In this document: positions 20,956 to 57,674 of the stretch, piece after piece
Layout: each line of letters starts with the position of its first letter
Position numbering within the stretch: position 1 is the stretch's first letter
Assembly (NCBI RefSeq): GCF_988242995.1
Contig: NZ_OZ547043.1
Direction: 5' to 3' (one strand)
DNA length: 64,000 nucleotides
Notes under the pieces: model-generated
What the model was told of the DNA's origin: nothing
What the model saw: the letters and a program-made list of their open reading frames with translations, nothing else
Databases searched by the model: none
Made by a program: the position numbers and the translations under genes

Positions 20956-20982
20956 TTATCGGCAAGGAGGGGGGAAACTTTA
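20956..20982 (-). promoter_or_regulatory. sigma28 (FliA) class 3 promoter of the tar-tap-cheRBYZ operon
   Basis: minus strand TAAAGTTT-N11-GCCGATAA, exact consensus halves, about 25-30 nt upstream of tar start. Confidence 0.8.
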
Positions 20983-21012
20983 TTGCTGATGCCACCCGCC
21001 GCGAAATTGAAA

Positions 21013-21040
21013 TAAAAAACCCGATGCGCAGATCATCGGG
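21013..21040 (-). terminator. rho-independent terminator after cheW (end of motAB-cheAW operon)
   Basis: minus-strand stem cccgatg/catcggg followed by U-tract. Confidence 0.8.
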
Positions 21041-21068
21041 TTCATTTCAATTGAGGAAATCGGGAGAA

Positions 21069-39270: not shown

Positions 39271-39357
39271 TGGTACCCGGAGCGGGACTTGAACCCGCAC
39301 AGCGCGAACGCCGAGGGATTTTAAATCCCTTGTGTCTACCGATTCCACCATCCGGGC
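39271..39357 (-). tRNA. leuZ: tRNA-Leu (anticodon UAA), 87 nt
   Basis: minus-strand sequence GCCCGGATGGTGGAATCGGTAGACACAAGGGATTTAAAATCCC...GGGTACCA; long variable arm; CCA encoded. Confidence 0.95.
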
Positions 39358-39369
39358 TCGGGAAGAAAG

Positions 39370-39443
39370 TGGAGGCGCGTTCCGGAGTCGAACCGGACTA
39401 GACGGATTTGCAATCCGCTACATAACCGCTTTGTTAACGCGCC
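39370..39443 (-). tRNA. cysT: tRNA-Cys (anticodon GCA), 74 nt
   Basis: minus-strand GGCGCGTTAACAAAGCGGTTATGTAGCGGATTGCAAATCCG...GCGCCTCCA. Confidence 0.95.
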
Positions 39444-39497
39444 AAATTCTTCAGGCCTTTCAGCCAGACATCCGCTTGAGGCCGATGTCTTTTAAAC

Positions 39498-39573
<76 letters not shown>

Positions 39574-47927: not shown

Positions 47928-48479
47928 TTAATATATATCAGAAGCAGGCAGGCTGGAGGATTTCTGCACAAGTCCGGTACACGTTTGACGCTGATAGTGT
48001 TGATACTTCCGTAATGCGATGCGGTAATTGTTGGTGCTGGTGGTGGGCAGCCACGGGGCGAGGATTTCATCAAGGAAACCGTCCTGCAGCGGATCGAGGG
48101 AAATATTTTGCTCGTGTAGATGATTCCCCAAACGGCGCAAACGAACGACATATTCACGCACCGTACCTGGGCTCATTTCAGTTTGCTCAAAAAGAAATTG
48201 CTTAAAGCCGATAATATCGAAAAAATCACTCTGCGTTTTGCAATGTAAATCACCGCAAAATCGGCACAATGCCGCCCATGATTTTTGTTCCGTTTGCCAG
48301 CCATTTTCATCAAGCAGCGCGTCCAGGCGGGAAATCTCGATTTTATTCACTATTTTGCCGTCGCGAACGAGGGTAATGCGATCGAGTAATTTACGGCAAT
48401 GCGCGCAATGAGTCTGGCTGTGTTTAAAGTCTTTAAGATAGCGGCTTAATGGCCGTCTTTTCAGGTGCTGCACCATCAT
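47928..48479 (-). CDS. fliZ: regulator FliZ (183 aa)
   Basis: ORF track 47928..48515; start set at MMVQHLKRRPL; directly downstream of fliA. Confidence 0.92.
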   Translation of the reverse strand: MMVQHLKRRPLSRYLKDFKHSQTHCAHCRKLLDRITLVRDGKIVNKIEISRLDALLDENGWQTEQKSWAALCRFCGDLHCKTQSDFFDIIGFKQFLFEQTEMSPGTVREYVVRLRRLGNHLHEQNISLDPLQDGFLDEILAPWLPTTSTNNYRIALRKYQHYQRQTCTGLVQKSSSLPASDIY

Positions 48480-48524
48480 TAAGAACTCCTGGTAGTCAAA
48501 GTTAAAGTGCGGCATTTACTGACG

Positions 48525-49244
48525 TTATAACTTACCCAGTTTAGTGCGTAACCGTTTAATAGCCTGGCTGTGTAACTGACTGACCCGCGATTCCCCGACC
48601 TCCAGCACCGCGCCAATCTCTTTGAGATTCAGCTCTTCCTGGTAATAGAGGGTTAATACCAGTTTTTCGCGCTCCGGCAACGTTTCGATGGCTTCCATCA
48701 CCCGCTGACGCAGATTACTGTCCAGCAGTTGTTGTAGCGGGTTTTCTCGCTGATGATCATCAGTAACCAGTTCGATGCTATCGCCGTGCTCTTCGCGCCA
48801 CTCATCGTAGGAGAAGAGCTGGCTGTTATTGGTGTCGAGCAACATTTGGCGATAATCGGCAATATCGATCCCTAAACGTTCCGCTACCTCAGTTTCCGTG
48901 GCGTTGCGGCCAAGTTCCTGCTCCAGTTGCCCTATTGCCTGTGCCACTTCACGCGCGTTGCGTCGCACGCTGCGCGGCACCCAGTCACGGCTGCGAAGTT
49001 CATCCAGCATAGCGCCACGGATACGCTGCACTGCGTAAGTTGTAAATGCCGTTCCTTGTAGGGCGTCATAGCGTTCGACGGCATTAAGTAACCCAATGCC
49101 GCCCGCCTGTAGCAGATCGTCAAGTTCCACGCTCGCGGGCAGTCGAACCTGCAGGCGCAATGCTTCGTGACGCACCAGCGGGACATAACGCTGCCATAGC
49201 GAGTGTTTATCCATTACACCTTCAGCGGTATAGAGTGAATTCAC
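48525..49244 (-). CDS. fliA: flagellar sigma factor FliA (sigma28, 239 aa)
   Basis: ORF track; sigma70-family regions 2 and 4 recognisable. Confidence 0.96.
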   Translation of the reverse strand: MNSLYTAEGVMDKHSLWQRYVPLVRHEALRLQVRLPASVELDDLLQAGGIGLLNAVERYDALQGTAFTTYAVQRIRGAMLDELRSRDWVPRSVRRNAREVAQAIGQLEQELGRNATETEVAERLGIDIADYRQMLLDTNNSQLFSYDEWREEHGDSIELVTDDHQRENPLQQLLDSNLRQRVMEAIETLPEREKLVLTLYYQEELNLKEIGAVLEVGESRVSQLHSQAIKRLRTKLGKL

Positions 49245-49371
49245 GATAAACAGCCCTGCGTTATATGAGTTATCGGCATGATTATCCGTTTCTGCAGGGT
49301 TTTTAATCGGACGATTAGTGGGTGAAATGAGGGGTTATTTGGGGGTTACCGGTAAATTGCGGGCAGAATAA

Positions 49372-50077
49372 ATATCCTCCGGCATAGCCGGAGGTTTTTC
49401 AAATGCGCCTGTAAGGCTCTGTTACCAGCCGCGCCCTAACAGGCGCATACGATCTGACATTTGCATTCAACTTCGTTACTTACGGCCCGTAAACGGGCTG
49501 CCCGGATATGGAATCGATAACTGCTCCCCCATTTTATCCTCTTCAAGCTGGTGCTTTATGTAGTCACGTATCTTCGCCGTGTTCTTACCCACCGTATCGA
49601 CATAGTACCCTCGGCACCAGAACTCCCTGTTTCTGTATTTGAATTTCAAATCCCCAAACTGCTCGTAAAGCATCAGACTGCTTTTCCCTTTCAGATATCC
49701 CATAAAGCCGGATACGCTCATTTTGGGTGGGATTTCCACAAGCATATGGATATGATCTGCGCAGCACTCTGCTTCCAGAATCCGTACGCTTTTCCACTCA
49801 CACAGCTTTCTCAAAATACTGCCTATCGCCCTACGCTTCTCTCCGTAAAACGCCAGTCTTCGGTATTTCGGCGCAAAAACTATGTGATATTTACAGTTCC
49901 AGCGGGTGTGCGCTAAGCTCTTTTCGTCCCCCATTGGGACCCCCTTTTGATTTCTTGTTTGACACTTGCAGTTGCCAGACCGCAAGGTGTTTTAACAAAT
50001 CAAAAGGGGTTTTAATAACTGGCTCAAAGCTGAAAGCTTTCCGGAACCCCCAGCCTAGCTGGGGGTTTTCTGTGCAC
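49372..50077 (-). mobile_element. IS200-family insertion sequence (IS200/IS605 group) in the fliA-fliC intergenic region
   Basis: intact 152-aa tnpA matching IS200 TnpA as recalled; terminal hairpin aacccccagcctagctgggggtt at 50045-50067; ends estimated from the canonical ~707-bp element, about +/-30 bp uncertain. Confidence 0.8.
49476..49934 (-). CDS. tnpA: IS200 transposase TnpA (HUH/Y1 ssDNA transposase, 152 aa)
   Basis: ORF track 49476..49985; start at MGDEKSLAHTRWNCKYHIVFAPKYRR; HxH motif (DHIHMLVEIPP) and C-terminal catalytic Tyr region. Confidence 0.92.
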   Translation of the reverse strand: MGDEKSLAHTRWNCKYHIVFAPKYRRLAFYGEKRRAIGSILRKLCEWKSVRILEAECCADHIHMLVEIPPKMSVSGFMGYLKGKSSLMLYEQFGDLKFKYRNREFWCRGYYVDTVGKNTAKIRDYIKHQLEEDKMGEQLSIPYPGSPFTGRK

Positions 50078-50108
50078 AAAAAACCCCGCCGGTGGCGGGG
50101 GTTGAGCG
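50078..50108 (-). terminator. rho-independent terminator of fliC
   Basis: minus strand ccccgccaccggcgggg followed by TTTTTT, 12 nt after fliC stop. Confidence 0.85.
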
Positions 50109-50119
50109 ATAAGTGTAAA

Positions 50120-51583
50120 TTAACGCAGCAGAGACAGTACGTTCTGCGTGGTCTGGTTAGCCTGCGCCAGAACAGAGGTACCCGCTTGTTGCAGGATCTG
50201 CGCACGAGACATGTTAGACACTTCGGTCGCGTAGTCAGCATCTTCGATACGGCTACGGGCAGAAGACAGGTTGTTTACGGTGTTGCCAAGGTTGGTGATA
50301 GCAGAGTCGAAACGGTTTTGTACTGCACCGAGGTCAGAACGCAGATTGTCAACTTTAGCCAATGCTTTGTCGATAGTTTCGAGCGGGTTGGTGGTAGATT
50401 GCAACGATTTTGCTGCATCTTCGTTTACCAGAATCGGGCTACCACCTTCTGATTTGCTCAGATACATGACTTTATTGTTACCAGAAGCAGTCTCCGTTAT
50501 CGTTTTACCATCTGCACTAACATCGTAAGTTGCACCGTTAACAACTAACGTGCTTCCTGTTTTCTTAGCTGCATTGAGATCAAGATCGGAAAGTGTGGCA
50601 GCCTTGTTATCAACTTTGGTTGTCGTATAAAGGCCAGCGCTATTTTTGTAAACTGTCTCACTCGTAATCAAAGAAGCTTTTTTGTCAGCATCTTTCACAG
50701 TAAATGTCACTGACTTACCATCAATTTCTGCAGAATATACACCATTCCCATTGCCATCCGCTGCAGTTGTTGTTGTGAATTCAACTCCATTAAACGTGAA
50801 TTTATCATTCTGTGCTTTATTCTTAGCCGCTGCTGCGAGTGCTGTAGCATCAATCCCTGTACCAGCTATGTTTGTGTCAGATTTAGTTGTCAGTGAACCA
50901 TCTGCTGCACTAACAAAAATATCATTCCCTGTAGTATCTTTAACAGCTCCGCTATCTACGTTAACAGTATAAGCATCACCGCCAACATCATAGTTATCAG
51001 TACCTGTCGCTTTAAATTTAGAAATCAGGTCACTGCCAGTTGCTTTCTGCGCGCCATCGATATTAAAACCGTCCAGGCCGAGAGTTTTCGCATCAATTTT
51101 TGCCAGATTGATAGTGATGGTTTCACCATCATTAGCACCAACCTGAATTTTCATTTCATTATTTTCAGCAAGGACTTTCACGCCGTTAAACTGAGTTTGC
51201 TCAGATACACGGTCAATTTCTTCCAGACGTTGAGTAATTTCAGCCTGGATAGAAGAAAGATCGCTGTCAGAGTTAGTACCGTTAGTTGCCTGAACAGTCA
51301 GTTCACGTACACGCTGCAGGTTGTTGTTAATTTCATTCAGCGCACCTTCAGTGGTCTGCGCAACAGAAATACCATCATTCGCGTTACGGGAAGCCTGAGT
51401 CAGACCTTTAATATTTGCTGTAAAACGGTTAGCAATCGCCTGACCTGCTGCGTCATCTTTAGCACTGTTAATACGCAGGCCAGAAGAGAGACGTTCAATG
51501 GCGGAGCTCAGAGAAGACTGAGATTTGTTCAGGTTATTCTGGGTCAACAGCGACAGGCTGTTTGTATTAATGACTTGTGCCAT
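50120..51583 (-). CDS. fliC: flagellin FliC (487 aa); conserved D0/D1 termini with variable central domain
   Basis: ORF track; N-terminus MAQVINTNSLSLLTQNNL and C-terminus ...QNVLSLLR typical of enterobacterial flagellin. Confidence 0.96.
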   Translation of the reverse strand: MAQVINTNSLSLLTQNNLNKSQSSLSSAIERLSSGLRINSAKDDAAGQAIANRFTANIKGLTQASRNANDGISVAQTTEGALNEINNNLQRVRELTVQATNGTNSDSDLSSIQAEITQRLEEIDRVSEQTQFNGVKVLAENNEMKIQVGANDGETITINLAKIDAKTLGLDGFNIDGAQKATGSDLISKFKATGTDNYDVGGDAYTVNVDSGAVKDTTGNDIFVSAADGSLTTKSDTNIAGTGIDATALAAAAKNKAQNDKFTFNGVEFTTTTAADGNGNGVYSAEIDGKSVTFTVKDADKKASLITSETVYKNSAGLYTTTKVDNKAATLSDLDLNAAKKTGSTLVVNGATYDVSADGKTITETASGNNKVMYLSKSEGGSPILVNEDAAKSLQSTTNPLETIDKALAKVDNLRSDLGAVQNRFDSAITNLGNTVNNLSSARSRIEDADYATEVSNMSRAQILQQAGTSVLAQANQTTQNVLSLLR

Positions 51584-51652
51584 GATCTTTTCCTTATCAA
51601 TTACAACTTGATGTTATTGGGCTGTTGCCCACGGTTTCTCACCGTACCCCTT

Positions 51653-51679
51653 GTATCGGCACCTGAATTTCGAACTTTA
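51653..51679 (-). promoter_or_regulatory. sigma28 class 3 promoter of fliC
   Basis: minus strand TAAAGTTC-N11-GCCGATAC about 70 nt upstream of fliC ATG. Confidence 0.75.
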
Positions 51680-51772
51680 GAAAATTTTAGTTTCTCTCCT
51701 GTTTTTTCTTAACGGCTGAAATATCCGTAATATACAACTCTACTCTGCGCATCATCTTCGTGAATCAACTAT

Positions 51773-51799
51773 TAAACTTTGCGCACAAATTGCCGATAA
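51773..51799 (+). promoter_or_regulatory. sigma28 promoter of fliDST
   Basis: TAAACTTT-N11-GCCGATAA about 40 nt upstream of fliD ATG. Confidence 0.75.
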
Positions 51800-51837
51800 C
51801 CCGCTTATCTACTGTTTGCAATCAAAAGGAATTAGGT

Positions 51838-53250
51838 ATGGCTTCATTTACATCTCTTGGCGTTGGTTCGAATCTGCCGCTGGATACATTGCTAAACAAC
51901 CTGACCATCGCTGAAAAAAAACGCTTAAACCCAATTACTCAGCAACAGAGTGACAATACCGCACGTCTGACAGCCTATGGCACATTAAAAAGTGCATTAG
52001 AAAAATTCCAGACTGCAAATACTGCGTTAAATAAAGCCGATCTGTTCAAAAGCACTACCGTTACCAGTAGCAATGAAGACCTTAAAGTTTCCACCGAAGC
52101 AGGTGCTGCCCCCGGTATCTATACCATCAGCGTAACCCAACTGGCGCAGGCGCAATCTTTACGAACTGATTCCCCGACAATCATTGCATCAACAAAAGAT
52201 GCACTGGGTGATGAGTCATCAGATACACGCACAATAAAAATTACCCAAGACGGTCGTAAAGAGCCGCTGGAAATCAAGCTCAATAAAGATCAGACGTCAT
52301 TGGATGAGATCAGCAAAGCCATTAACGATGCCGATAGTGGAATTTCCGCTAGTATCGTTAAAGTCAAAGATGGTAACTATCAATTGGTATTGACCGCCAG
52401 TGAAGGTCTGGCCAATAAAATGACCATATCTGTTGAGGGTGACAGTAAATTAAATGATCTGCTGGCTTATGACAGCAAGACCAACACCGGGAATATGAAG
52501 GAACTGGTTAACGCGCAAAATGCACAGCTAAACGTTAACGGTATCGATATTGAACGTTCAAGTAACAAAATTACCGATGCTCCTCAGGGAGTGACTCTCG
52601 ATTTGACCAAAAAAGTCACTGACGTCCGGGTCACGGTGACAAAAAGCAACGATAAAGCAACCGAAGCAATTAAAGGCTGGGTGGATTCATATAACTCCCT
52701 CATTGACACCTTTAACACCCTGACAAAATATAAAGAAGTAGACCCAGGTGCTGAAGCACAAGATAAAAATAATGGTGCACTTCTCGGAGACAGCGTTGTA
52801 CGTACAATTCAAAGCGGCATCCGCGCACAATTTGCAAACGGTGCCAGCGACAGTGCCTTCAAAACATTAAACGAGATCGGGATTAAGCAGGACGGCACGA
52901 CGGGTAAGCTGAAAATTGATGATGATAAACTCAAAAAAGTCCTGAATGAAAATACAGCATCCGTACGTGAATTGCTGGTAGGCGATGGTAAAGAAACAGG
53001 AATTACCACCAAAATTGCCACCGAGGTAAAAGGTTACCTTGCCGATGATGGCATTATTGATAGCGCACAGGACAGTATTAACGCCACACTGAAAAAACTG
53101 ACCAAACAGTATCTATCCGTCAGTGCCAGCATTGATGACACCGTGGCGCGTTACACTGCACAGTTTACGCAATTAGATACCATGATGAGCAAACTGAATA
53201 ACACCAGTACCTATCTCAGCCAACAATTTACTGCAATGAGTAATTCCTGA
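51838..53250 (+). CDS. fliD: flagellar filament cap protein FliD (about 470 aa)
   Basis: ORF track 51760..53250; start set at ATG 51838 (MASFTSLGVGSN) with AAAGGA RBS. Confidence 0.93.
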   Translation: MASFTSLGVGSNLPLDTLLNNLTIAEKKRLNPITQQQSDNTARLTAYGTLKSALEKFQTANTALNKADLFKSTTVTSSNEDLKVSTEAGAAPGIYTISVTQLAQAQSLRTDSPTIIASTKDALGDESSDTRTIKITQDGRKEPLEIKLNKDQTSLDEISKAINDADSGISASIVKVKDGNYQLVLTASEGLANKMTISVEGDSKLNDLLAYDSKTNTGNMKELVNAQNAQLNVNGIDIERSSNKITDAPQGVTLDLTKKVTDVRVTVTKSNDKATEAIKGWVDSYNSLIDTFNTLTKYKEVDPGAEAQDKNNGALLGDSVVRTIQSGIRAQFANGASDSAFKTLNEIGIKQDGTTGKLKIDDDKLKKVLNENTASVRELLVGDGKETGITTKIATEVKGYLADDGIIDSAQDSINATLKKLTKQYLSVSASIDDTVARYTAQFTQLDTMMSKLNNTSTYLSQQFTAMSNS

Positions 53251-53264
53251 TCACGGAGGTCAGC

Positions 53265-53675
53265 ATGTATACCGCGAGCGGCTCAAAAGCCTATGCACAA
53301 ATTGGCGTCGAAAGCGCCGTAATGAGCGCCAGCCAGCAGCAGCTGGTCACCATGCTATTTGATGGAGTGCTGAGCGCACTGGTTAGAGCACGCCTGTTTA
53401 TGCAGGACAACAATCAGCAAGGCAAAGGCGTCTCTTTGTCAAAAGCGATCAACATCATTGAGAACGGACTGCGGGTGAGTCTTGATGAAGAGAGCAAAGA
53501 CGAATTAACCCAAAACTTGATTGCTCTTTATAGCTATATGGTCAGGCGCTTGCTGCAAGCCAATTTACGCAACGATGTCTCCGCAGTCGAAGAAGTGGAA
53601 GCATTAATGCGCAATATTGCCGATGCCTGGAAAGAGTCGTTACTCTCCCCTTCTTTGATTCAGGACCCAGTCTGA
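53265..53675 (+). CDS. fliS: flagellin-specific chaperone FliS (136 aa)
   Basis: ORF track. Confidence 0.95.
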
Positions 53676-54040
53676 TGAACCACGCACCGCATTTGTATTT
53701 CGCCTGGCAACAACTCGTCGAAAAAAGCCAGCTCATGTTACGCCTGGCAACAGAAGAACAATGGGACGAACTCATCGCCAGCGAGATGGCGTATGTGAAT
53801 GCGGTGCAGGAGATTGCACATCTGACTGAAGAGATTGACCCGTCCACCACGATGCAGGAGCAGCTCCGCCCGATGCTGCGCCTGGTTCTCGACAACGAAA
53901 GCAAGGTAAAGCAGTTATTACAGATTCGGATGGATGAACTGGCGAAACTGGTCGGTCAGTCATCGGTGCAAAAATCGGTGTTAAGTGCCTATGGTGATCA
54001 GGGCGGCTTTGTGCTGGCTCCGCAGGATAACCTCTTTTGA
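53675..54040 (+). CDS. fliT: FliD chaperone / anti-FlhDC factor FliT (121 aa)
   Basis: ORF track; start overlaps fliS stop. Confidence 0.93.
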
Positions 54041-54117
54041 ATCTGAACGAGTCGATGGCTCGCGAATAATCCGATTACGGCTACGCTTCTAATGTTCCCC
54101 TTGAATGGAGTCGAAGA

Positions 54118-55605
54118 ATGCGTAATCCCACGCTGTTACAATGTTTTCACTGGTATTACCCGGAAGGCGGTAAGCTCTGGCCTGAACTGGCCGAGCGCGC
54201 CGACGGTTTTAATGATATTGGTATCAATATGGTCTGGTTGCCGCCCGCCTATAAAGGCGCATCGGGCGGGTATTCGGTCGGCTACGACTCCTATGATTTA
54301 TTTGATTTAGGCGAGTTTGATCAGAAAGGCAGCATCCCTACTAAATATGGCGATAAAGCACAACTGCTGGCCGCCATTGACGCCCTGAAACGTAATGACA
54401 TTGCGGTGCTGTTGGACGTGGTAGTCAACCACAAAATGGGCGCGGATGAAAAAGAAGCTATTCGCGTGCAGCGTGTAAATGCTGATGACCGTACGCAAAT
54501 TGACGAAGAAATCATTGAGTGTGAAGGCTGGACGCGTTACACCTTCCCCGCCCGTGCCGGGCAATACTCGCAGTTTATCTGGGATTTCAAATGTTTTAGC
54601 GGTATCGACCATATCGAAAACCCTGATGAAGATGGCATATTTAAAATTGTTAACGACTACACCGGCGAAGGCTGGAACGATCAGGTTGATGATGAATTAG
54701 GTAATTTCGATTATCTGATGGGCGAGAATATCGATTTTCGCAATCATGCCGTGACGGAAGAGATTAAATACTGGGCGCGCTGGGTGATGGAACAAACGCA
54801 ATGCGACGGTTTTCGTCTTGATGCGGTCAAACATATTCCGGCGTGGTTTTATAAAGAGTGGATCGAACACGTACAGGAAGTTGCGCCAAAGCCGCTGTTT
54901 ATTGTGGCAGAGTACTGGTCGCATGAAGTCGATAAACTGCAAACGTATATTGATCAGGTGGAAGGCAAAACCATGCTGTTCGATGCGCCGCTGCAGATGA
55001 AATTCCATGAAGCATCGCGCATGGGGCGCGACTACGACATGACGCAGATTTTCACGGGTACATTAGTGGAAGCCGATCCTTTCCACGCCGTGACGCTCGT
55101 TGCCAATCACGACACCCAACCATTGCAAGCCCTCGAAGCACCGGTCGAACCGTGGTTTAAACCGCTGGCGTATGCTCTAATTTTGTTGCGGGAAAATGGC
55201 GTTCCTTCGGTGTTCTATCCGGACCTCTACGGTGCGCATTACGAAGATGTCGGTGGTGACGGGCAAACCTATCCGATAGATATGCCAATAATCGAACAGC
55301 TTGATGAGTTAATTCTCGCCCGTCAGCGTTTCGCCCACGGTGTACAGACGTTATTTTTCGACCATCCGAACTGCATTGCCTTTAGCCGCAGTGGCACTGA
55401 CGAATATCCCGGCTGCGTGGTGGTCATGTCGAACGGGGATGATGGCGAAAAAACCATTCATCTGGGAGAGAATTACGGCAATAAAACCTGGCGTGATTTT
55501 CTGGGGAATCGGCAAGAGAGCGTAGTGACCGACGAAAACGGCGAAGCGACCTTCTTTTGCAACGGCGGCAGCGTCAGCGTGTGGGTTATCGAAGAGGTGA
55601 TTTAA
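54118..55605 (+). CDS. amyA: cytoplasmic alpha-amylase AmyA (495 aa)
   Basis: ORF track; GH13 motifs ([14 protein letters not shown]). Confidence 0.94.
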
Positions 55606-55632
55606 ATTCATCCCCGGCGGCAAGCCGGGGAG
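55606..55632. terminator. terminator hairpin between convergent amyA and yedD
   Basis: tccccggc-ggcaa-gccgggga. Confidence 0.7.
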
Positions 55633-55638
55633 ATTTCA

Positions 55639-56055
55639 TTACGGCAGTGGCGTCGGTAACGGCGCTTTATCCAGCGCGGCGGCACACTCTGCCGTCGGGC
55701 GATCCACACGCTCCATCGTCATACCATCGTACTCAATGGTGTTACCGTCACGCTCAACCTCGTACAGCTCACGTTTTACGGTAACGTTAGTGAGATCATC
55801 AGACATCAATGTCAACTTGCCCGGCACGGCAATCACCCGCTGCCACTGACGGCAATCCAGGGTATCGCCCTCTTTAGTGACAATCAGGCTGCCTATCGCT
55901 TCCGGACTGACCAGCGCACGTTGCGGCCCTTTGGTCTGCCAGTAGCCCGCCAGCCAGTCCGGCGCGGGGGTTTTCACGACATTGTTATAGTTTTCGACTT
56001 CGGCACAGCCCGCCAGCAACATGAGCGCGCTTGCAATTGCGAGTTTTTTCATCAT
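55639..56055 (-). CDS. yedD: lipoprotein YedD (about 137 aa)
   Basis: ORF track; lipobox LLAGC. Confidence 0.85.
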   Translation of the reverse strand: MMKKLAIASALMLLAGCAEVENYNNVVKTPAPDWLAGYWQTKGPQRALVSPEAIGSLIVTKEGDTLDCRQWQRVIAVPGKLTLMSDDLTNVTVKRELYEVERDGNTIEYDGMTMERVDRPTAECAAALDKAPLPTPLP

Positions 56056-56238
56056 TCGTCCTGCATGAGAAGAAAAGAGGATTGTGGCATTAAAGCCCTG
56101 ATGTCGCCAGCCTTTCCAGGTTCAGAGAGAAATTTGATCTAACTATTATTTTTGTGAATTATTACCCCGAAAATAAATTTGCATGATGTATGATTCGCGA
56201 TTCTTGTTTCAAACCTTCTGAGTTCAGAGGCTACATTC

Positions 56239-57444
56239 ATGTCATGGCAGCAATTCAAACACGCCTGGTTGATTAAATTCTGGGCACCCATCCCTGCGGT
56301 CATCGCGGCGGGTATTCTCTCCACTTACTATTTTGGCATTACTGGCACCTTTTGGGCTGTCACGGGTGAATTTACCCGTTGGGGCGGCCAGCTCCTGCAG
56401 CTGTTTGGCGTCCATGCTGAAGAGTGGGGTTATTTTAAAATTATCCATCTGGAAGGATCGCCATTAACCCGCATCGACGGGATGATGATCCTCGGCATGT
56501 TTGGCGGCTGCTTTGCCGCAGCGCTGTGGGCCAACAATGTCAAACTGCGCATGCCACGCAGCCGTATCCGCATTATGCAGGCCATTATTGGCGGTATTAT
56601 CGCTGGTTTTGGCGCGCGTCTGGCAATGGGCTGTAACCTGGCGGCGTTCTTTACCGGTATTCCTCAGTTCTCGCTGCATGCCTGGTTCTTTGCCATCGCC
56701 ACTGCCATTGGTTCATGGTTTGGCGCACGCTTTACCCTGCTGCCCATCTTCCGTATTCCCGTGAAAATGCAGAAAGTTTCTGCCGCCTCACCGCTGACGC
56801 AAAAACCGGATCAGGCGCGGCGTCGTTTTCGTCTCGGGATGCTGGTCTTTTTCGGTATGCTGGGCTGGGCGCTGCTCACGGCGATGAACCAACCAAAACT
56901 GGGGCTGGCAATGCTGTTTGGCGTCGGCTTTGGTTTACTGATTGAACGTGCGCAAATCTGCTTTACTTCGGCGTTCCGCGATATGTGGATCACCGGACGT
57001 ACCCATATGGCGAAAGCAATCATTATCGGTATGGCGGTGAGTGCCATCGGGATCTTCAGTTACGTACAGTTAGGCGTTGAACCCAAAATCATGTGGGCGG
57101 GACCAAACGCGGTAATTGGTGGTTTACTGTTTGGTTTTGGCATCGTGCTGGCAGGCGGCTGCGAAACCGGCTGGATGTACCGCGCGGTAGAAGGCCAGGT
57201 GCACTACTGGTGGGTCGGTCTGGGCAATGTGATCGGCTCGACGATTCTGGCGTATTACTGGGATGATTTCGCTCCGGCGCTGGCCACCGACTGGGACAAA
57301 ATCAACCTGCTGAAAACCTTTGGCCCGATGGGTGGCCTGCTGGTGACATATTTGCTGTTGTTTACTGCGCTGATGTTGATTATCGGCTGGGAAAAACGCT
57401 TCTTCCGCCGTGCGGCACCGCAGACTGCTAAGGAGATCGCATGA
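56239..57444 (+). CDS. yedE: YedE/YeeE-family inner membrane transporter (selenium/thiosulfate-related), 401 aa
   Basis: ORF track; polytopic membrane protein; translationally coupled to yedF. Confidence 0.9.
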   Translation: MSWQQFKHAWLIKFWAPIPAVIAAGILSTYYFGITGTFWAVTGEFTRWGGQLLQLFGVHAEEWGYFKIIHLEGSPLTRIDGMMILGMFGGCFAAALWANNVKLRMPRSRIRIMQAIIGGIIAGFGARLAMGCNLAAFFTGIPQFSLHAWFFAIATAIGSWFGARFTLLPIFRIPVKMQKVSAASPLTQKPDQARRRFRLGMLVFFGMLGWALLTAMNQPKLGLAMLFGVGFGLLIERAQICFTSAFRDMWITGRTHMAKAIIIGMAVSAIGIFSYVQLGVEPKIMWAGPNAVIGGLLFGFGIVLAGGCETGWMYRAVEGQVHYWWVGLGNVIGSTILAYYWDDFAPALATDWDKINLLKTFGPMGGLLVTYLLLFTALMLIIGWEKRFFRRAAPQTAKEIA

Positions 57445-57674
57445 AAAATATCGTTCCTGATTACCGCCTTGATATGGTGGGTGAACCCTGCCCTTATCCG
57501 GCAGTCGCAACTCTTGAGGCGATGCCGCAGTTAAAAAAAGGGGAAATCCTGGAAGTGGTGAGCGACTGTCCACAGTCGATCAATAATATTCCACTGGATG
57601 CGCGTAATCACGGCTATACGGTGCTGGATATTCAGCAAGACGGGCCGACCATTCGTTATTTAATTCAGAAGTAA
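57441..57674 (+). CDS. yedF: TusA-like sulfurtransferase-fold protein YedF (77 aa)
   Basis: ORF track; conserved CPxP motif (EPCPYP). Confidence 0.9.
   Translation: MKNIVPDYRLDMVGEPCPYPAVATLEAMPQLKKGEILEVVSDCPQSINNIPLDARNHGYTVLDIQQDGPTIRYLIQK

What the first reader, a model, noticed from the sequence alone, without database searches (positions are those of the whole stretch)
50384..51061. Flagellin central (antigenic) domain differs from the K-12 sequence as recalled
FliC here is 487 aa. The N-terminal about 175 and C-terminal about 90 residues are canonical D0/D1, but the central segment (rich in T/D/G/A/K, e.g. ...DNYDVGGDAYTVNVDSGAVKDTTGNDIFVSAADGSLTTKSDTNIAGTGIDATALAAAAKNK...) does not match K-12 flagellin, which I recall as 498 aa. 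This indicates a different H serotype, consistent with a non-K-12 strain background. I cannot assign the H type from memory.
Basis: inference. Interest (0 to 1): 0.3.

Follow-up and report, generated by a model that had tools for sequence, protein, structure and literature searches.

The report
Ordinary H11 flagellin gene (fliC)
The gene is an intact, very common E. coli flagellin allele of serotype H11 (the type carried by O26:H11 and ETEC H10407), so its difference from the K-12 laboratory strain is real but ordinary.

Summary
fliC lies at window 50120-51583 on the minus strand and encodes an intact 487-aa flagellin. K-12 FliC is 498 aa. The flagged stretch 50384-51061 is exactly residues 175-400. 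Against K-12, the central region is 23-26% identical in protein and has no BLASTN alignment.

The H type can be assigned as H11. The gene differs by one nucleotide (T297K) from the flagellin WP_000079823.1 of O26:H11 str. 11368, O26:H11 FWSEC0001, O103:H11 RM8385 and ETEC H10407. It is nucleotide-identical to four complete genomes. The next-nearest alleles (O111:H8, ECOR29-type) are about 75% identical in nucleotides over the central region.

Three refinements:
- The H11-specific part is narrower than flagged, about residues 200-320 (window 50624-50986). H8 and ECOR29-type alleles match H11 almost exactly outside it.
- Divergence from K-12 covers all of fliC, all of fliD (50% aa identity) and the first 24 nt of fliS. 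Flanking DNA is 98.2-98.4% identical to K-12.
- The "conserved" C-terminus is 70% identical to K-12 but 88.8% identical to Salmonella FliC.

Noticed in passing: a 711-bp IS200 sits directly after the fliC terminator, 122 nt upstream of fliA. None of 5,426 complete E. coli genomes has it at this site.

Novelty: already known. Interest: low.

The parts
50120..51583 (-). fliC, an intact 487-aa flagellin of the H11 allele (protein identical to WP_032162419.1 of strain Ch1)
   Evidence: ORF. Pfam Flagellin_N, FliC-like_3rd and Flagellin_C. 100% nt identity to four complete genomes and 99.9% to O26:H11 strains.
51059..51583 (-). Coding region for N-terminal D0/D1 (residues 1-175)
   Evidence: Pfam Flagellin_N covers 5-142. 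85.1% aa identity to K-12, 84.1% to Salmonella FliC, and 98.9% to the O111:H8 and ECOR29 alleles.
50384..51061 (-).
   Evidence: Coordinates mapped. 23-26% aa identity to K-12 and no BLASTN alignment to K-12.
50624..50986 (-). H11-specific hypervariable core (about residues 200-320), inferred to be the surface-exposed D3 plus adjacent D2
   Evidence: In 20-residue windows, identity to the O111:H8 and ECOR29 alleles falls to 33-75% only between residues 201 and 320. Outside that stretch it is 90-100% in all but one window, residues 361-380 versus O111:H8 at 70%. GC is 40.5% against 50.4% for the window. The AF2 model is confident (pLDDT 73-93) for about residues 190-350.
50693..50695 (-). Codon 297, AAA (Lys). 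This is the only difference from the common H11 protein, which has Thr. Gene position 890 is A versus C, at window position 50694.
   Evidence: The K297 protein is on 414 contigs and the T297 protein on at least 1000 contigs of the protein collection.
50120..50389 (-). Coding region for C-terminal D1/D0 (residues 399-487) plus the stop codon
   Evidence: Pfam Flagellin_C covers 401-486. 70.0% aa identity to K-12, 88.8% to Salmonella FliC, and 100% to the O111:H8 and ECOR29 alleles.
51653..51679 (-). Sigma-28 (FliA) type promoter-like element TAAA-N15-GCCGATAC upstream of fliC
   Evidence: Read directly from the sequence. This is a consensus match only; function is inferred from the known class 3 regulation of fliC.
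50078..50100 (-). fliC intrinsic terminator: a 7-bp GC stem followed by T6
   Evidence: Conserved in K-12 and Ch1.
51838..53250 (+). fliD (filament cap, 470 aa), co-divergent with fliC
   Evidence: Pfam FliD_N and FliD_C. 50% aa identity to K-12 FliD. Same size and position as the 470-aa FliD (WP_000146099.1) annotated in O26:H11 and Ch1; window 50074-57583, which contains fliD, differs from Ch1 at 1 of 7510 nt.
50078..53288 (.). The whole segment that is divergent from K-12: fliC 3'UTR, fliC, the intergenic promoters, fliD, and the first 24 nt of fliS
   Evidence: BLASTN against K-12 gives 98.2% identity up to 49372 and 98.4% from 53289 onward. In between there are only weak partial matches. 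FliS differs at residues 3, 5, 7, 8 and 43.
49367..50077 (-). IS200 insertion (711 bp) between the fliC terminator and the fliA promoter region. It is adjacent to the finding, not part of the flagellin.
   Evidence: Y1_Tnp ORF. Rfam STnc490 full-length match at 146 bits. Insertion boundaries from alignment to Ch1 and K-12. Absent at this site in 5,426 complete genomes.
48525..49244 (-). fliA (sigma-28), needed for fliC transcription. The protein is identical to K-12 FliA.

Best explanation
This is the chromosomal fliC gene of an ordinary non-K-12 E. coli, and it carries the H11 flagellin allele as a T297K variant. Residues 1-175 and 399-487 (domains D0/D1) form the helical core that polymerises into the filament; in well-studied flagellins they also hold the export, FliS-chaperone and TLR5-recognition sites. 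The middle of the protein folds into the outer domains on the filament surface and carries the H-antigen epitopes. Within the family of closely related alleles (H11, the O111:H8 allele, the ECOR29-type allele), only about residues 200-320 differ, so that stretch is what makes the antigen H11. The allele comes as a roughly 3.2-kb divergent cassette (fliC plus fliD) that replaces the K-12 version by homologous recombination. One edge is at the fliC terminator and the other is just inside fliS. Shown here: gene integrity, domain content, allele identity, the extent of divergence and population frequency. Inferred: surface exposure of residues 200-320, actual expression of the antigen, and the recombination history.
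For: - The ORF is intact and contains Flagellin_N, a beta-sheet domain and Flagellin_C.
- It sits in the canonical fliZ-fliA-fliC | fliD-fliS-fliT context.
- A sigma-28 promoter-like motif lies upstream and an intrinsic terminator downstream.
- There is one nucleotide of difference in 1464 from the fliC of O26:H11 RM10386, whose flagellin WP_000079823.1 is also annotated in O26:H11 str. 11368 and ETEC H10407.
- The central region is 99.9% identical to the record named O26:H11 FWSEC0001.
- The whole gene is 99.9% identical to RM8385, which PMC6986202 calls O103:H11.
- 194 of 5,426 complete genomes carry the central region at 95% identity or more. The next class is at about 76% nt.
- The exact protein is on 414 contigs, and its T297 sister is on at least 1000 contigs.
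- The O111:H8 and ECOR29 alleles are 98.9-100% identical outside residues 200-320 and 33-75% identical inside. This fits the reported need for cross-absorbed sera for H11/H21 (PMC4753304).
- The closest solved structures by sequence are Salmonella FliC and FljB filaments, aligned over the full length with E about 1e-121 to 1e-124.
- The divergent segment against K-12 runs from the fliC 3' end to 53288.
Against: - No H-typing reference database (EcOH or SerotypeFinder) and no serology could be used. The H11 call rests on serotype names attached to genome records and on one paper.
- One RefSeq record with the same flagellin is labelled O176:H45.
- The structural mapping of the hypervariable core to D3/D2 is weak. 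The AF2 model has mean pLDDT 61 and Foldseek TM-scores are at most 0.23.
- Expression is untested, and an IS200 lies 122 nt upstream of fliA.
Confidence: 0.95

Rival explanations
1. The allele encodes a serologically related but different H type (H21, H8 or H40) rather than H11.
For: The O111:H8 and ECOR29-type alleles share 98.9-100% identity with this protein outside residues 200-320. H11/H21 are reported as cross-reactive pairs (PMC4753304).
Against: Within the central region, identity is 99.6% to the O26:H11 and H10407 protein but only 69-70% to the O111:H8 and ECOR29 alleles. At the nucleotide level there is a clean gap between the 99%-or-higher class and the 76%-or-lower class.
Confidence: 0.02
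2. The allele is H45, as suggested by the RefSeq record 'Escherichia coli O176:H45 strain MIN9', which has the same flagellin.
For: MIN9 carries WP_000079823.1 at its fliC locus. That protein is one residue from the window protein.
Against: The same protein accession is in O26:H11 str. 11368 and ETEC H10407. The H45 reference fliC (AY250023.1) matches fliC-H1 primers and probe with 0/0/0 mismatches, whereas an O15:H11 strain is negative (PMC4753304). That places H45 in a different conserved-region group. The MIN9 label is most simply an error, or a phenotype not encoded at fliC.
Confidence: 0.02
3. The genotype is H11, but the strain does not express it (non-motile, H-) because the IS200 inserted 122 nt upstream of fliA perturbs fliA transcription and hence class 3 expression of fliC.
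For: - IS200 lies at 49367-50077, between the fliC terminator and the fliA upstream region.
- Its right end carries a terminator-like hairpin.
- This insertion site is absent from 5,426 complete genomes.
Against: - The 122 nt upstream of fliA that are conserved between K-12 and H11 strains are untouched.
- The insertion only separates them from the fliC terminator.
- FliA is identical to K-12 FliA.
- S. Typhimurium has an IS200 in the analogous fliB-fliA spacer, used as a serovar marker (PMC6415898), and the serovar is motile (my own knowledge).
Confidence: 0.12
4. The H antigen actually displayed comes from a second, non-fliC flagellin locus elsewhere in the genome (flkA, fllA, flmA or flnA type) that represses fliC.
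For: Such loci exist in some E. coli (established knowledge). Only 64 kb of the genome is visible here.
Against: TBLASTN finds no second flagellin in the window. H11 is encoded at fliC in O26:H11 and H10407.
Confidence: 0.03

Closest known systems
E. coli fliC-H11, as in O26:H11 str. 11368, O103:H11 RM8385 and ETEC H10407 (WP_000079823.1)
   Same: Same length (487 aa), same locus, same FliD partner and same 3'UTR. 1463 of 1464 nt are identical.
   Different: One substitution, T297K. This variant, WP_032162419.1, is itself present in four complete genomes and on 414 contigs. In the window an IS200 follows the terminator.
Sister alleles of the same E. coli flagellin group: the O111:H8 allele (WP_000079816.1, 492 aa) and the ECOR29 allele (WP_000079818.1, 491 aa; I recall ECOR29 as H21, not verified here)
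   Same: Residues 1-200 and about 320-487 are 98.9-100% identical. They share the same 164-bp fliC-fliA spacer and the same 470-aa FliD family.
   Different: Residues about 200-320 are only 33-75% identical and contain indels. This is the serotype-defining difference.
E. coli K-12 FliC (H48; b1923, 498 aa; filament core structure 8CXM)
   Same: Same locus, same domain plan, and D0/D1 recognisably homologous at 85% and 70% identity.
   Different: - The central region is 23-26% identical.
- fliD is 50% identical.
- K-12 has a 195-nt 3'UTR (FliX sRNA, containing a REP element), whereas the 3'UTR here is about 45 nt.
Salmonella enterica FliC and FljB (PDB 1UCU, 3A5X, 6JY0, 8FML)
   Same: These are the best-scoring solved relatives, ahead of the E. 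coli K-12, H6 and H7 filaments. C-terminal D1/D0 is 88.8% identical and N-terminal D0/D1 is 84.1% identical. The four-domain plan is inferred to be shared.
   Different: The central domains are not alignable with confidence (low posterior probabilities). It is a different genus, and there is no fljB phase-variation partner in the window.

Membership tests
Bacterial flagellin (FliC) | N-terminal helical region (Pfam PF00669) | tested here: met
   Residues 5-142, E = 1.6e-45, covering the full length of the profile.
Bacterial flagellin (FliC) | C-terminal helical region (Pfam PF00700) | tested here: met
   Residues 401-486, E = 1.2e-31, covering the full length of the profile.
Bacterial flagellin (FliC) | Position in the fliA-fliC | fliD-fliS-fliT locus, with a sigma-28 type promoter | tested here: met
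   Gene order. The TAAA-N15-GCCGATAC motif lies at 51653-51679. This is a consensus match only.
Bacterial flagellin (FliC) | Polymerises into a filament and is exported by the flagellar type III system | not testable with these tools
   Inferred from full-length homology to Salmonella and E. coli filament structures.
E. coli H11 fliC allele | Near-identity across the variable region to fliC of strains of serotype H11 | tested here: met
   222 of 223 central residues are identical to O26:H11 11368 and H10407. 99.9% nt identity to O26:H11 FWSEC0001 and to O103:H11 RM8385.
E. coli H11 fliC allele | Clearly separated from every other H-type allele | tested here: met
   Among 5,426 genomes, the central-region hits are 190 at 99% or more, 5 at 95-99%, 1 at 90-95%, 2 at 80-90% and 413 at 60-80%, with listed alleles from about 76% downward. 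The O111:H8 and ECOR29 alleles are 69-70% identical in protein.
E. coli H11 fliC allele | Best hit to the curated H11 reference in EcOH, SerotypeFinder or ECTyper | not tested
   No typing database is available offline. Wang et al. 2003 could not be retrieved.
E. coli H11 fliC allele | Agglutination with H11 antiserum | not testable with these tools
   This needs a wet-lab assay.
E. coli K-12 (H48) fliC allele | Central domain near-identical to b1923 | tested here: not met
   23-26% aa identity and no BLASTN alignment.
IS200 (IS200/IS605 family), the adjacent element | Single Y1 (HUH) transposase gene, about 0.7 kb, structured 5'UTR, no terminal inverted repeats and no target duplication | tested here: met
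   PF01797, E = 1e-36. Length 711 bp. Rfam STnc490 match at 146 bits across all 124 model positions. The junctions show no duplication. 99% or more identical to annotated IS200/IS605-family tnpA copies, which occur at up to 18 places per genome in other E. coli.

The most novel reading that the evidence does not exclude
The only unusual feature is next to the finding. An IS200 is inserted exactly at the end of the fliC terminator, 122 nt upstream of fliA. None of 5,426 complete E. coli genomes has an insertion there, but the position is analogous to the serovar-specific IS200 in the fliB-fliA spacer of Salmonella Typhimurium. If this insertion changes fliA or fliC expression, the strain would be an H11 genotype with an altered or absent H phenotype. 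Possible routes are isolating fliA from upstream read-through, or producing the Hfq-binding tnpA 5'UTR RNA next to the flagellar sigma-factor gene. It would also suggest the terminator-proximal site upstream of fliA is a recurrent IS200 target.
Probability: 0.1. Interest if true: 0.25.

Novelty: already known. Interest (0 to 1): 0.06.

Why it matters
The practical value is strain typing. The window can be labelled as coming from an H11 E. coli, with an allele shared with O26:H11 and O103:H11 EHEC, ETEC H10407 and many commensal or animal strains. It does not come from K-12.

The result also illustrates three known points:
- E. coli H-antigen diversity is carried by a recombining fliC-fliD cassette.
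- Within an allele group, only about 120 residues define the serotype.
- Some E. coli flagellin groups have Salmonella-like D0/D1 ends.

None of this is new biology.

Tried and rejected
- **Primary reference.** I tried to retrieve Wang et al. 2003 (J Bacteriol 185:2936), the main survey of E. coli fliC diversity, by DOI and by a remembered PMC id. It is not held.
- **The O176:H45 label.** A literature search for strain MIN9 returned only irrelevant papers. The conflict was resolved indirectly from protein accessions and PMC4753304.
- **ECOR29 serotype.** A literature search did not confirm it. The H21 assignment for that comparator remains my recollection only.
- **Structure prediction.** An AlphaFold2 run on a six-sequence alignment gave mean pLDDT 61 and pTM 0.40. 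Only about residues 190-350 reach pLDDT 70 or more.
- **Fold search.** Foldseek against the PDB ranked Salmonella flagellins first, but with TM-scores of 0.23 or less and rmsd of 25 Å or more. I do not use it as independent evidence for the domain mapping.
- **MS-H typing paper.** PMC3578835 lists H11 strains but gives no sequence-level data.
- **Second flagellin or second IS200 copy in the window.** None was found.
- **Searches not run.** I chose not to spend the large shared protein or metagenome searches on this, because the answer was already unambiguous.

Full report
**1. What is at the coordinates**

- The ORF at window 50120-51583 on the minus strand encodes an uninterrupted 487-aa protein.
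- Pfam finds Flagellin_N at residues 5-142 (E = 1.6e-45), Flagellin_C at 401-486 (E = 1.2e-31) and the flagellin beta-sheet domain PF22370 at 285-388.
- The gene order is fliZ (47928-48515, -), fliA (48525-49244, -), fliC (-), fliD (51838-53250, +), fliS, fliT. This matches the order around b1923 in K-12.
- The finding's coordinates 50384-51061 correspond exactly to residues 175-400. The quoted peptide starts at residue 196. Residues 176-398 are 57% T/D/G/A/K.
- Upstream of the gene lies a sigma-28 type motif, TAAA-N15-GCCGATAC, at 51653-51679. Downstream lies a GC-rich hairpin with a T6 run at 50078-50100.
- TBLASTN finds no second flagellin gene in the window.

**2. Comparison with K-12**

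- Protein identity to K-12 is 85.1% for residues 1-175, 23-26% for the central region and 70.0% for the last 89 residues.
- At the DNA level only the two ends align, at 79.8% and 73.1% identity. The centre does not align at all.

**3. Which H type**

Evidence for H11:
- The gene is nucleotide-identical to four complete RefSeq genomes: Ch1, GENOMIC22-004, CH4796 and LR778151.
- It differs at one position (gene nt 890, A versus C, window position 50694; Lys297 versus Thr) from the fliC of O26 RM10386.
- That T297 protein, WP_000079823.1, is the annotated flagellin of Escherichia coli O26:H11 str. 11368 and of ETEC H10407. I recall H10407 as O78:H11.
- The central region is 99.9% identical to the record named O26:H11 strain FWSEC0001.
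- The gene is 99.9% identical to RM8385, which PMC6986202 calls O103:H11.

Separation from other types:
- Of 5,426 complete genomes, 194 carry the central region at 95% identity or more.
- The next class is at about 76% nucleotide identity and includes records named O111:H8.

Frequency of the variant:
- The exact window protein is on 414 contigs of the large protein collection.
- The T297 form is on at least 1000 contigs.

One conflicting label:
- A record named O176:H45 strain MIN9 has the same WP_000079823.1 at its fliC locus.
- In PMC4753304 the H45 reference gene AY250023.1 matches fliC-H1 primers and probe with no mismatches, whereas an O15:H11 strain is negative.
- H45 therefore belongs to a different conserved-region group, and I treat the MIN9 label as an error.

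I could not run EcOH or SerotypeFinder, so the H11 call rests on record names plus one paper. It is nevertheless unambiguous.

**4. Where the serotype specificity lies**

- I compared the window protein with the O111:H8 allele (492 aa) and the ECOR29 allele (491 aa), which I recall as H21 but did not verify.
- Residues 1-200 and about 320-487 are 98.9-100% identical across these alleles.
- In 20-residue windows between 201 and 320, identity drops to 33-75% and there are indels.
- The H11-defining stretch is therefore window 50624-50986, roughly half of what was flagged. It is also the AT-richest part, at 40.5% GC against 50.4% for the window.
- This shared scaffold fits the statement in PMC4753304 that H11/H21 and H8/H40 need cross-absorbed antisera.

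**5. Extent of divergence from K-12**

- BLASTN of window 40001-62000 against the K-12 locus gives 98.2% identity up to 49372 and 98.4% from 53289 onward. Between these points there are only weak partial matches.
- The divergent unit therefore includes the fliC 3'UTR, fliC, the divergent promoter region, all of fliD and the first 24 nt of fliS.
- FliD is 50% identical in protein to K-12 FliD. FliS differs at residues 3, 5, 7, 8 and 43.
- FliA is identical to K-12 FliA.
- The same flanks are about 100% identical to many wild strains such as cq9 and U90, which confirms a non-K-12 background.
- The pattern is that of an allelic fliC-fliD cassette exchanged by homologous recombination. The recombination history itself is an inference.

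**6. The 'conserved' ends are Salmonella-like**

- The best-scoring solved structures are Salmonella FliC and FljB (9IWQ, 6JY0, 8FML, 9GNZ, 1UCU; E about 1e-121 to 1e-124). They rank ahead of E. coli K-12 (8CXM) and the EPEC and EHEC filaments.
- The C-terminal 89 residues are 88.8% identical to Salmonella FliC, against 70.0% to K-12.
- The N-terminal 175 residues are about equally distant from both, at 84.1% and 85.1%.

**7. How it works**

- From established flagellin structural biology (Salmonella FliC, 1UCU and 3A5X), D0/D1 from both termini form the filament core, and the central residues form the outer D2/D3 domains that carry the H epitopes.
- HMMER aligns residues about 200-320 to Salmonella D3 plus the start of D2, but with low confidence.
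- An AlphaFold2 model from a six-sequence alignment was confident only for about residues 190-350 (overall pLDDT 61).
- Foldseek ranked Salmonella flagellins first, but with TM-scores of 0.23 or less.
- The domain mapping therefore remains an inference.

**8. Adjacent observations**

The IS200 insertion:
- The fliC-fliA spacer is 875 bp in the window, against 164 bp in other H11 strains. The extra DNA is a 711-bp IS200 at 49367-50077 on the minus strand.
- It encodes a Y1 transposase, and its 5'UTR matches Rfam STnc490 at 146 bits.
- It is inserted immediately after the terminator T-run, with no target duplication. The 122 nt upstream of the fliA GTG, which are conserved with K-12, are left intact.
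- No complete E. coli genome has an insertion at this site, and neither do the 24 longest contigs that encode the identical FliC.
- S. Typhimurium carries a serovar-specific IS200 in the analogous fliB-fliA spacer (PMC6415898) and is motile (my own knowledge). A neutral effect here is therefore the most likely outcome, but this is untested.

The fliC 3'UTR:
- H11-type strains have a fliC 3'UTR of only about 45 nt.
- The K-12 FliX sRNA region is 195 nt and contains a REP element (PMC10578931). In the window it is absent except for the terminator.

**9. Verdict**

The finding is real, correctly interpreted and ordinary. It is a known, common H11 fliC allele in a non-K-12 E. coli. Novelty is 'already known' and interest is low. 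The only mildly unusual item is the neighbouring IS200 insertion.

Noticed in passing
window 49367-50077 (minus strand): A 711-bp IS200 (Y1 transposase; Rfam STnc490 5'UTR at 49944-50067) is inserted exactly after the fliC terminator T-run, 122 nt upstream of the fliA start codon, in the same orientation as fliC and fliA, with no target duplication. None of 5,426 complete E. coli genomes and none of 24 contigs with the identical FliC has an insertion here. S. Typhimurium has an IS200 in the analogous fliB-fliA spacer.
   Followed up: partly
window 50078-50119 compared with L001 5913-6107 (K-12 fliX): The fliC 3'UTR is only about 45 nt in this and other H11-type strains. The 195-nt K-12 FliX sRNA region, which contains a REP element, is missing except for the shared terminator hairpin. 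FliX-mediated regulation as described in K-12 may therefore not apply to this allele group.
   Followed up: partly
window 51838-53288: fliD is co-divergent with fliC, at 50% aa identity to K-12 FliD. The divergence ends 24 nt into fliS, where FliS residues 3, 5, 7 and 8 differ. The exchanged unit is therefore a fliC-fliD cassette, not the flagellin central domain alone.
   Followed up: yes
L004 (NZ_CP069682.1, 'E. coli O176:H45 strain MIN9') 2479-3942: This RefSeq record is labelled H45 but carries the same flagellin protein accession (WP_000079823.1) as O26:H11 str. 11368 and ETEC H10407. The serotype label is probably wrong.
   Followed up: partly
window 50120-50389 (FliC residues 399-487): The C-terminal D1/D0 of this E. 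coli flagellin is 88.8% identical to Salmonella FliC but only 70% identical to K-12 FliC. Salmonella filaments are the best-scoring solved structures.
   Followed up: partly
L010 (ETEC H10407, NC_017633.1) 3072 onward: In H10407, which shares the H11 allele, fliZ is annotated as an incomplete pseudogene just downstream of fliA. In the window, fliZ is intact.
   Followed up: no
L008 7024-7464 (GCA_053151395.1): Another genome with the identical FliC has a Y1_Tnp (IS200-family) gene downstream of tcyJ, where dcyD normally lies. This is a different IS200-family insertion site in the same neighbourhood.
   Followed up: no
window 2696-2738, 6674-6981, 20972-21049, 39271-39573: Other RNA genes are detected in the window: ES036 (CssrF), MicL, C0465 and a tRNA-Leu(taa)/Cys(gca)/Gly(gcc) cluster. 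These are ordinary E. coli chromosomal features.
   Followed up: no
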